A DNA stretch of 64,000 nt from Escherichia coli (GTDB taxonomy: Bacteria > Pseudomonadota > Gammaproteobacteria > Enterobacterales > Enterobacteriaceae): assembly GCF_003334385.1 (NCBI RefSeq), contig NZ_QOWN01000006.1; one strand, 5' to 3'. Each line of letters opens with the position of its first letter. The first letter of the stretch is position 1. A program made the position numbers and the translations under genes. Below are positions 22,968-23,081 of the stretch, in pieces. Below the pieces are notes generated by a model. That model was not told the DNA's origin and did no database searches. It saw only the letters and a list, made by a program, of their open reading frames with translations.

Positions 22968-23003
22968 ATAAAAAAAGCCTCGTGGGTGAATCCGCACGAG
23001 GCC
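22968..23003 (-). terminator. Intrinsic terminator downstream of zwf
   Basis: Minus strand reads caGGCCTCGTGcggattcacCCACGAGGCttttttta: hairpin plus U-run about 80 bp after the zwf stop. Confidence 0.55.
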
Positions 23004-23041
23004 TGAAAGTGTAAAAATTGTTCTACAATCTGCGCAAGATC

Positions 23042-23057
23042 ATGTTACCGGTAAAAT
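23042..23057. promoter_or_regulatory. Palindromic GntR-operator-like site (ATGTTACCGGTAAAAT) in the zwf-edd spacer
   Basis: Perfect 10-bp palindrome TTACCGGTAA inside ATGTTACCGGTAAAAT; similarity to GntR operators is from memory and unverified. Confidence 0.3.
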
Positions 23058-23081
23058 AACCATAAAGGATAAGCGCAGATA

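What the first reader, a model, noticed from the sequence alone, without database searches (positions are those of the whole stretch)
22968..23081. Perfect palindrome TTACCGGTAA between the zwf stop codon and the zwf terminator hairpin
ATGTTACCGGTAAAAT (23042-23057) resembles GntR-type operators known to control edd-eda, yet it lies upstream of the strong zwf terminator hairpin (22968-23003) in the direction of transcription. An edd promoter here would have to read through that hairpin, or the real edd promoter lies between the hairpin and edd (22848-22967). The placement is worth resolving.
Basis: partly seen in the sequence, partly recalled or inferred. Interest (0 to 1): 0.35.

Follow-up and report, generated by a model that had tools for sequence, protein, structure and literature searches.

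The report
Known GntR operator upstream of edd
The palindrome is the upstream operator of the well-known gluconate repressor GntR for the E. coli edd-eda operon. Its odd position ahead of the zwf terminator is explained because the edd promoter is built into that terminator and starts transcription just after it, so the finding is real but ordinary.

Summary
The window is the E. coli zwf–edd–eda locus, transcribed on the minus strand. ATGTTACCGGTAAAAT (23042-23057) lies 24 nt after the zwf stop and upstream of a GC-rich hairpin with a T7 tract.

- **Operator identity:** It matches ATGTTA-N4-TAACAT with one mismatch. That motif also sits in front of gntT and gntK in K-12.
- **Conservation:** Both sites are present in all 61 Enterobacteriaceae examined except one, which has a more diverged O1. 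O2's synonymous positions are frozen.
- **Placement puzzle:** Published full-length transcript mapping (Yan 2018) puts the zwf 3' end at 22970, the last T of the tract, and the edd-eda start at 22956.
- **Promoter:** TTCACC (hairpin loop) –17 nt– TACACT (just after the T-tract) is conserved. A candidate promoter upstream of the hairpin is not.

P1 transcripts therefore never contain the hairpin. O1 is centred at -93.5 and O2 at +129.5, flanking P1. This suggests cooperative or looping repression, which is inferred and not shown.

GntR control of edd P1 is established, so the finding is already known and of low interest.

The parts
23082..23084 (-). zwf stop codon (TAA)
   Evidence: ORF 23082..24557 on the minus strand. 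Annotated as zwf in K-12.
23042..23057 (.). Operator O1: ATTTTACCGGTAACAT on the edd strand, spanning -101 to -86 from the edd-eda TSS (centre -93.5). This is the upstream GntR operator.
   Evidence: One mismatch to ATGTTA-N4-TAACAT, and the only such hit in the window. In 60 of 61 Enterobacteriaceae sequences it is present with at most 2 mismatches, and its 3' half GGTAACAT is invariant in all 61. The same motif lies upstream of gntT and gntK.
23036..23041 (-). Invariant 3' flank of O1 (GATCT + N), containing a GATC (Dam) site at 23041-23038
   Evidence: TTACCGGTAACATGATCT is invariant in 61 of 61 sequences except one substitution in L030. Function unknown.
22970..23004 (-). zwf intrinsic terminator: hairpin 23004-22974 plus U7 tract 22976-22970
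   Evidence: Fold -18.9 kcal/mol, z = -5.5. Covariation: 92.9% of cells paired, 42 double-sided changes against 7.6 in shuffles, 0 of 500. The zwf transcript 3' end maps at K-12 1,934,727 = window 22970, with 14 reads ending there and 4 passing through.
22985..22990 (-). edd P1 -35 hexamer TTCACC, located in the loop and inner stem of the terminator hairpin
   Evidence: Conserved in 54 of 61 sequences while the flanking stem varies. Part of the top-scoring hexamer pair in the region.
22962..22967 (-). edd P1 -10 hexamer TACACT, immediately after the T-tract
   Evidence: Conserved in 59 of 61 sequences, with a spacer fixed at 17 nt. It lies 5 nt upstream of the mapped TSS.
22956..22956 (-). edd-eda transcription start (A), K-12 coordinate 1,934,713
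   Evidence: SMRT-Cappable-seq operon table: b1851|b1850, TSS 1934713, reverse strand, same gene content as the RegulonDB operon. Converted to window coordinates.
22848..22955 (-). Remainder of the 109-nt edd 5' UTR (the UTR begins at the TSS, 22956), with the Shine-Dalgarno AGGAG at about 22857-22853
   Evidence: AGG of the Shine-Dalgarno is invariant.
22820..22835 (.). Operator O2: TTGTTACGCGTAACAA, a perfect 16-bp palindrome in edd codons 5-9, spanning +122 to +137 (centre +129.5)
   Evidence: It sits at exactly +12 from the ATG in all 61 Enterobacteriaceae. Synonymous sites are frozen: TTA 60/60, GTA 60/60, ACA 58/60, against third-position entropy of 1.2-1.9 bits in neighbouring invariant codons. 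It is absent from outgroups that encode xxRVT with varied codons.

Best explanation
The palindrome is the upstream operator (O1) of the LacI/GalR-family gluconate repressor GntR for the edd-eda P1 promoter.

The zwf terminator and P1 are one overlapping composite element. The hairpin stem and U7 tract end zwf transcripts at 22970. On the same DNA, the hairpin loop supplies the -35 (TTCACC), the 3' stem arm plus T-tract form the 17-nt spacer, and TACACT just beyond the tract is the -10. edd-eda transcripts therefore start at 22956 and never contain the hairpin.

O1 (centre -93.5) is too far upstream to occlude RNA polymerase by itself. It is paired with a second operator, O2 (centre +129.5), inside the first codons of edd.

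The most likely mechanism is as follows. In the absence of gluconate, GntR dimers on O1 and O2 cooperate, probably by looping the 223 bp between the two operator centres, which contains P1. O2 may also act as an elongation roadblock. Gluconate or 6-phosphogluconate releases GntR.

**Shown here or in data I could read:** the sequence features, their conservation, the hairpin covariation, and the 5' and 3' transcript ends.
**Taken from the literature:** that GntR represses edd-eda.
**Inferred, not shown:** that GntR binds these two particular sites, and that they cooperate by looping.
For: **Operator identity**
- Motif match and rarity in the window.
- Four of the five motif hits in 40 kb of K-12 lie directly upstream of gntT (two sites 141 bp apart) and gntK (two sites offset by 13 bp). 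Expected 1.19; 0 of 100 shuffles reach 5.
- O1 is present with at most 2 mismatches in 60 of 61 Enterobacteriaceae, and O2 is fixed at +12 in all 61.
- O2 shows synonymous-site constraint that the protein sequence cannot explain.

**Promoter and terminator**
- TSS at 1,934,713 = window 22956, and zwf 3' end at 1,934,727 = window 22970. zwf is listed only as monocistronic and edd only as edd|eda.
- TTCACC-17-TACACT is conserved in 54/61 and 59/61 sequences and is the top-scoring hexamer pair.
- The hairpin stem covaries while the loop sequence stays fixed.
- In L026 a separate terminator sits upstream of O1 and the promoter-overlapping stem has decayed, yet the -35, T-tract and -10 are retained.

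**Geometry**
- The O1 centre is fixed 93-95 bp upstream of the promoter-predicted start (22955, 1 nt from the mapped TSS) across genera.

**Background**
- E. coli GntR is LacI-family.
- Its effectors are gluconate and gluconate-6-P, and LacI and GalR loop DNA (PMC3877293).
- GntR repression of edd-eda is described as established (PMC13386637).
Against: - No binding data for GntR at O1 or O2 could be read. The primary papers (Egan 1992, Murray & Conway 2005, Peekhaus & Conway 1998) are not in the library.
- The TSS was mapped in media without gluconate, so it reflects basal P1 activity. An additional gluconate-specific start cannot be excluded.
- Helical phasing of O1-O2 is only suggestive. Distances cluster at 209-214, 218-223 and 232 bp, but each cluster is half a turn wide. 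Rayleigh R is about 0.5 on 12 unique distances. The unconstrained zwf-stop-to-O1 spacer is also lumpy.
- The promoter is weak by consensus (8/12) and fell below the scan threshold.
- The oligomeric state of GntR is unknown here.
- The paralogous repressor IdnR/GntH recognises similar sites and could share these operators.
Confidence: 0.8

Rival explanations
1. Attenuation. The edd promoter lies upstream of the hairpin and overlaps or abuts O1, for example TTGCGC (23037-23032) -18- TACACT (23013-23008) with a start near 23003. Its transcripts must read through the hairpin, which would then act as a regulated attenuator.
For: This hexamer pair is the second-best in the region. O1 would then sit in a classical promoter-proximal position (centre about -47). 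Four of 18 zwf reads do pass the terminator.
Against: No TSS is reported there. The only edd|eda start is at 22956. The hexamers are not conserved: TTGCGC in 1 of 61 sequences and TACACT in 4 of 61. A transcript beginning with a -18.9 kcal/mol hairpin plus U7 would mostly terminate.
Confidence: 0.04
2. O1 does not regulate P1 initiation. It is a roadblock or insulator for transcription coming from zwf. GntR bound 24 nt after the zwf stop would stop polymerases that would otherwise leak through the terminator into edd when gluconate is absent. O2 alone would repress P1 as an elongation roadblock.
For: O1 lies between the zwf stop and the terminator. The terminator leaks in the one dataset available, with 4 of 18 reads passing. 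Weak TSSs inside the zwf 3' end were assigned to edd by Kim 2012. As I recall, without checking here, roadblocks by LacI-family repressors within coding regions are known (PurR at purB).
Against: The O1-to-promoter distance is held within ±1 bp in 58 sequences while the zwf-stop-to-O1 distance varies from 12 to 169 nt. That points to a constraint linking O1 to P1, not to zwf. This role also does not exclude looping.
Confidence: 0.1
3. The palindrome is a chance or relic sequence with no present function, or it is bound by a different regulator.
For: Perfect 10-bp palindromes are common in 64 kb. The same 10-mer occurs by chance-like placement in the rsmF 3' end at 9889-9898. Twelve of 100 shuffles give a hit with at most 1 mismatch somewhere in the window.
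Against: The site is near-invariant in 61 species across about 25 genera, while the flanking intergenic DNA is saturated with changes. A matching partner site lies 223 bp away with frozen synonymous positions. The same motif lies in front of gntT and gntK.
Confidence: 0.03

Closest known systems
E. coli edd-eda P1 promoter under GntR control (Egan et al. 1992, J Bacteriol 174:4638; Murray & Conway 2005, J Bacteriol 187:991). The citation is confirmed but the content is recalled, not read.
   Same: It is the same locus, the same repressor and the same promoter. The mapped TSS gives a 109-nt leader. GntR repression of edd-eda is called established.
   Different: Nothing differs; this is that system. 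I could not check whether those papers describe the terminator/promoter overlap, O2 inside edd, or the -93.5/+129.5 geometry.
gntT regulation by GntR through two separated operators (Peekhaus & Conway 1998, J Bacteriol 180:1777; cited)
   Same: Two copies of the same motif are separated by more than 100 bp, with the downstream one in the transcribed region just before or within the start of the gene (sites 141 bp apart, the second 35 nt before the gntT ATG).
   Different: As I recall, without checking here, the upstream gntT operator overlaps the -10. At edd the upstream operator is at -93.5 and a terminator lies between it and the promoter.
gal operon repressosome (GalR at OE -60.5 and OI +53.5) and lac O1/O2/O3 looping
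   Same: A LacI/GalR-family repressor has operators on both sides of the promoter, neither of which overlaps the core promoter, and one lies inside the first structural gene. The family's looping ability is noted.
   Different: The edd spacing is about twice that of gal (223 bp against 113 bp). No evidence is available here for GntR tetramerisation or HU dependence. Phasing evidence is weak.
gntK and outgroup edd promoters with tandem overlapping GntR sites
   Same: They carry the same motif. Ravcheev 2014 notes overlapping sites about 13 bp apart at gntKU and in more than half of GntR-regulated operons. This is seen here at gntK and upstream of edd in Serratia, Rahnella and Proteus, at 14-15 bp offsets.
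   Different: Enterobacteriaceae edd has separated operators, not tandem ones. This layout coincides with edd lying directly downstream of zwf.

Membership tests
Operator of the E. coli gluconate repressor GntR (LacI/GalR family) | 16-bp palindromic site matching ATGTTA-N4-TAACAT (consensus recalled from memory, then tested on gntT and gntK) | tested here: met
   O1 matches 11 of 12 specified positions and O2 matches 10 of 12. The consensus recovers sites in front of gntT and gntK.
Operator of the E. coli gluconate repressor GntR (LacI/GalR family) | Located at the promoter of a gluconate-regulon transcription unit | tested here: met
   The sites flank the edd-eda TSS at 22956. edd-eda is repressed by GntR.
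Operator of the E. coli gluconate repressor GntR (LacI/GalR family) | Site conserved in orthologous promoters of related genomes | tested here: met
   O1 is present in 60 of 61 sequences and O2 in 61 of 61. O2 has frozen synonymous sites.
Operator of the E. coli gluconate repressor GntR (LacI/GalR family) | Physical, gluconate-sensitive binding of GntR to the site | not testable with these tools
   No binding data are accessible. The primary papers are not held.
Intrinsic (Rho-independent) terminator | GC-rich stem-loop immediately followed by a U-tract | tested here: met
   Ten-pair plus two-pair stem, -18.9 kcal/mol, z = -5.5, followed by U7.
Intrinsic (Rho-independent) terminator | Structure maintained by compensatory changes | tested here: met
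   92.9% of cells paired; 6 pairs with double-sided changes; 42 cells against 7.6 in shuffles; 0 of 500 shuffles reach this.
Intrinsic (Rho-independent) terminator | Transcript 3' ends map in the U-tract | tested here: met
   Published full-length reads place the zwf transcript end at 1,934,727 = window 22970, the last U. Fourteen reads end there and 4 pass through.
Sigma-70 promoter (edd P1) | -35 and -10 hexamers with 16-18 nt spacing, placed correctly relative to a mapped TSS | tested here: met
   TTCACC-17-TACACT matches 8 of 12 positions and is the best pair in the region. The TSS lies 6 nt after the -10. The pair is below the 9/12 threshold of the scan.
Repression loop of the gal/lac type | Two operators flanking the promoter, neither overlapping it | tested here: met
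   O1 spans -101 to -86 and O2 spans +122 to +137.
Repression loop of the gal/lac type | Inter-operator distance conserved in helical phase | tested here: inconclusive
   Distances are 209-214, 218-223 and 232 bp, with none at 215-217 or 224-231. The clusters are about 5 bp wide, R is about 0.5 on unique values, and the control spacer is also lumpy.
Repression loop of the gal/lac type | Repressor oligomerises to bridge two sites, and both sites are required for full repression | not testable with these tools
   This needs biochemistry and genetics.

The most novel reading that the evidence does not exclude
GntR bound at O1 and O2 closes a loop of about 223 bp that encloses both the zwf terminator and the edd P1 promoter, which share the same DNA. 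The repressor would then do two jobs at once. It would silence P1, and through O1 (24 nt after the zwf stop) it would stop polymerases leaking from zwf into edd. This would insulate the oxidative pentose-phosphate gene from the Entner-Doudoroff genes unless gluconate is present. The arrangement would have arisen when edd came to lie behind zwf in the Enterobacteriaceae, replacing the ancestral tandem operators.
Probability: 0.3. Interest if true: 0.35.

Novelty: already known. Interest (0 to 1): 0.15.

Why it matters
The finding matters little beyond tidy annotation. It explains how a repressor site can sit upstream of a terminator without any read-through being needed. It also documents a compact case where one 35-bp segment is read as a terminator in RNA and as a promoter in DNA, with each function leaving its own conservation signature: a covarying stem and a fixed loop. 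For anyone engineering flux between the pentose-phosphate and Entner-Doudoroff pathways, it shows that the native edd control region spans from -101 to +137 and includes five codons of edd. Promoter swaps or recoding of the edd N-terminus will therefore alter GntR control.

Tried and rejected
- **Primary papers:** I tried to read Egan 1992, Murray & Conway 2005, Peekhaus & Conway 1998 (both) and Tsunedomi 2003. None is held. Several full-text searches gave nothing specific.
- **TSS and 3'-end supplements with nothing for this locus:** Conway 2014 and Dar & Sorek 2018 have no supplements held. Adams 2021 and Ettwiller 2016 have no hits. Thomason 2015 is not held. Kim 2012 lists only weak TSSs inside zwf, at 3-6 reads and without a gluconate condition.
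- **Consensus scans:** They found neither the promoter nor the terminator. The thresholds were too strict for an 8/12 promoter and a bulged stem.
- **Promoter upstream of the hairpin:** Rejected because its hexamers are not conserved and no TSS is reported there.
- **Long inverted repeat in the E. coli leader region (about 22963-22903):** Rejected as a conserved RNA structure. It shows 55% pairing, the same as shuffles, and its 5' arm lies mostly upstream of the TSS.
- **RNA stem AUCUGCGC/GCGCAGAU enclosing O1 in the E. coli fold:** The 5' arm is not conserved.
- **Helical-phase analysis of O1-O2 spacing:** Inconclusive.
- **Ravcheev 2014 supplements:** They give only regulog totals, not site positions.

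Full report
**Identity of the locus.** The window is collinear with the E. coli K-12 chromosome (window coordinate + 1,911,757 = NC_000913.3 coordinate). The region around the finding is 99.9% identical to K-12 and present in all 5,426 complete E. coli genomes. On the minus strand the order is:
- zwf (24557-23082)
- a 234-nt intergenic region
- edd (22847-21036)
- eda (20999-20358)

**The observation.** Read on the minus strand, the zwf stop TAA (23084-23082) is followed after 24 nt by ATTTTACCGGTAACAT (23057-23042). On the plus strand this reads ATGTTACCGGTAAAAT, as reported. Next comes AGGCCTCGTGCGGATTCACCCACGAGGC plus T7 (hairpin 23004-22974, T-tract 22976-22970), and 122 nt later the edd ATG.
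- The 10-bp core TTACCGGTAA is a perfect palindrome.
- The 16-mer is the only match in the window to ATGTTA-N4-TAACAT with at most one mismatch (0.13 expected).
- The hairpin folds at -18.9 kcal/mol (z = -5.5).
- The simple consensus scans found neither the terminator (bulged stem) nor any promoter at their thresholds.

**Is it a GntR operator?** I recalled the consensus ATGTTA-N4-TAACAT from memory, so I tested it inside the session. In 40 kb of K-12 containing gntT and gntRKU there are five matches with at most 2 mismatches (1.19 expected; 0 of 100 shuffles reach five). Four of them lie directly upstream of gluconate genes. Two are 141 bp apart before gntT, and two are offset by 13 bp in the gntR-gntK spacer. 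The motif therefore marks the gluconate regulon.

The repressor is a LacI/GalR-family protein (LacI HTH plus Peripla_BP domains). Its effectors are gluconate and gluconate-6-P (PMC3877293). It is not a member of the GntR/FadR superfamily, which matters for the phrase 'GntR-type'. An open paper calls GntR repression of edd-eda 'established' (PMC13386637). The primary papers exist (Egan 1992 is cited) but are not in the library.

**A second operator.** The motif search also found TTGTTACGCGTAACAA at 22820-22835, a perfect 16-bp palindrome covering edd codons 5-9. These are the only two matches with at most 2 mismatches in 64 kb, and they lie 223 bp apart on either side of the edd start.

**Comparative evidence.** A scan with the Edd protein returned 80 loci from different species.
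- In all 61 distinct Enterobacteriaceae sequences, zwf lies immediately upstream of edd.
- O1 is present with at most 2 mismatches in 60 of them, and O2 sits at exactly +12 from the ATG in all 61.
- O1 and its 3' flank (TTACCGGTAACATGATCT) are essentially invariant, while the DNA between the zwf stop and O1 is unalignable.
- O2 is constrained beyond the protein. Codons 6, 8 and 9 are TTA (60/60), GTA (60/60) and ACA (58/60). Third positions of neighbouring invariant residues carry 1.2-1.9 bits of entropy.
- Outgroup genera encode xxRVT with varied codons and have no site there.
- In those outgroups (Serratia, Rahnella, Proteus, Erwinia, Xenorhabdus) zwf is not upstream. Where sites are found, they are tandem, offset by 14-15 bp, and lie 78-158 nt before edd. 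This is the arrangement Ravcheev et al. describe as typical for GntR.

**Where is the promoter?** Two hexamer pairs were candidates:
- A: TTGCGC-18-TACACT, upstream of the hairpin
- B: TTCACC (22990-22985) -17- TACACT (22967-22962)

B is the best-scoring pair in the region and A the second (the weights are approximate and recalled). Conservation separates them. B's hexamers occur in 54/61 and 59/61 sequences with a spacer of fixed length but variable sequence. A's occur in 1/61 and 4/61.

Direct evidence comes from SMRT-Cappable-seq (Yan et al. 2018, PMC6131387).
- The operon table lists b1851|b1850 (edd|eda) with TSS 1,934,713, reverse strand, with the same gene content as the RegulonDB operon. 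It lists b1852 (zwf) only as a monocistronic unit from 1,936,374.
- The transcript-end table lists the zwf transcript as 1,934,727-1,936,374, with 14 reads ending at the site and 4 passing through.
- In window coordinates the zwf 3' end is 22970, the last T of the T7 tract. The edd-eda start is 22956, an A that lies 6 nt after TACACT and 1 nt from my sequence-based prediction.

The two ends are 14 nt apart and the edd leader is 109 nt long.

**A composite terminator/promoter.** The hairpin stem covaries strongly: 92.9% of cells paired, six pairs with double-sided changes, 42 such cells against 7.6 in shuffles, 0 of 500. The loop GGATTCACC and the segment TTTTTTTATTACACT are almost invariant. 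That is the pattern expected if the stem is selected as RNA structure and the loop and tail as promoter DNA.

One species gives a natural separation of function. In L026 a canonical terminator sits between the zwf stop and O1 and the promoter-overlapping stem has decayed, but TTCACC, the T-tract and TACACT are kept. This rests on a single species.

**Geometry and mechanism.** Relative to the TSS, O1 spans -101 to -86 (centre -93.5) and O2 spans +122 to +137 (centre +129.5).
- The O1-to-promoter distance is fixed within ±1 bp in 58 sequences. All length variation lies in the leader.
- O1 cannot occlude polymerase from -93.5. A pair of operators flanking a promoter, one of them inside the first gene, is the architecture of gal (OE/OI) and resembles gntT.
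- I therefore favour cooperative binding with looping, with O2 possibly also acting as a roadblock.
- This step is inferred. O1-O2 distances fall into three groups (209-214, 218-223, 232 bp) with none in between, which hints at helical phasing. But the groups are half a turn wide, and the unconstrained spacer upstream of O1 is also lumpy. I call the phasing inconclusive.

**Rejected readings.**
- A promoter upstream of the hairpin with attenuation: no TSS is reported and the hexamers are not conserved.
- Chance: excluded by conservation, the partner site and the regulon context.
- The long inverted repeat in the E. coli leader region: not conserved and largely upstream of the TSS.
- An O1-only insulator role against zwf read-through: this cannot be excluded and is compatible with looping.

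**Verdict.** The finding is real and correctly identified, but it is the known GntR-controlled edd P1 region. The placement question is resolved by existing transcript-end data together with conservation. Novelty: already known. Interest: low.

Noticed in passing
window 9889-9898: A second exact copy of TTACCGGTAA lies in the last codons of rsmF (…F T G N A stop), 118 nt upstream of yebV. The chance expectation for the 10-mer is 0.02 per window, but the full 16-mer has 4 mismatches to the GntR consensus. It is probably coincidence.
   Followed up: partly
window 23036-23041: The 5-6 nt immediately 3' of O1 (GATCT) are invariant in all 61 Enterobacteriaceae, beyond the palindrome and without a symmetric counterpart on the other side. 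They contain a GATC Dam site at 23041-23038. At a 14-bp offset the sequence ATGATCTNNNNCAGAT matches the operator consensus at only 7 of 12 positions, so it may be a degenerate remnant of the tandem second site seen in outgroups.
   Followed up: partly
window 22944-22950 (+7 to +13 of the edd leader): TTTTGCC at the start of the edd 5' UTR is invariant or nearly so across 61 species, although the rest of the leader is poorly conserved. Its function is unknown. It could be the initial transcribed region, or a binding site for a regulator or sRNA.
   Followed up: no
window 22903-22963: E. coli has a 14-pair inverted repeat (ACTGACTGAAACG…CGTTTCAGTCAT, -20 kcal/mol) straddling the P1 start. It is not supported by covariation across genera (55% paired, the same as shuffles). 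Its 5' arm is mostly upstream of the TSS, so it would form only in zwf read-through RNA.
   Followed up: yes
L026:2236-2300 (Escherichia sp. ESNIH1): An extra canonical terminator (GCGGCCCUGCGGGGCCGUUUUUUU) sits between the zwf stop and O1, and the stem overlapping P1 has decayed while the promoter hexamers are retained. This is a natural uncoupling of the terminator and promoter functions.
   Followed up: partly
L040, L043, L044 (Buttiauxella): The zwf-edd spacer is 379-380 nt instead of about 234. The extra 145 nt or so lie between the zwf stop and O1. I did not examine their content.
   Followed up: no
L067, L078-L081, L079 (Serratia, Proteus, Rahnella), 78-158 nt upstream of edd: Outgroups that lack zwf upstream of edd carry two overlapping GntR-like sites offset by 14-15 bp close to edd, like E. 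coli gntK (13 bp). The separated O1/O2 layout therefore appears to be derived, together with the zwf-edd adjacency.
   Followed up: partly
window 21285 and 21349 (inside edd); 20322: SMRT-Cappable-seq lists two eda-only TSSs inside edd (K-12 1,933,042 and 1,933,106) and the eda terminator end at 1,932,079. These fit the internal eda promoters described in the literature. Kim 2012 also reports the 350-nt-leader start.
   Followed up: no
window 23198, 23253, 23442 (inside the zwf 3' end): Kim et al. 2012 assign three weak TSSs (3-6 reads) inside zwf to edd. Transcripts from them would run into O1 and the terminator. They are likely noise or pervasive initiation.
   Followed up: no
window 24610-24617: The zwf TSS (24617, minus strand) and one hexR/yebK TSS (24610, plus strand) from SMRT-Cappable-seq are face-to-face within 8 bp. 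These are overlapping divergent promoters.
   Followed up: no
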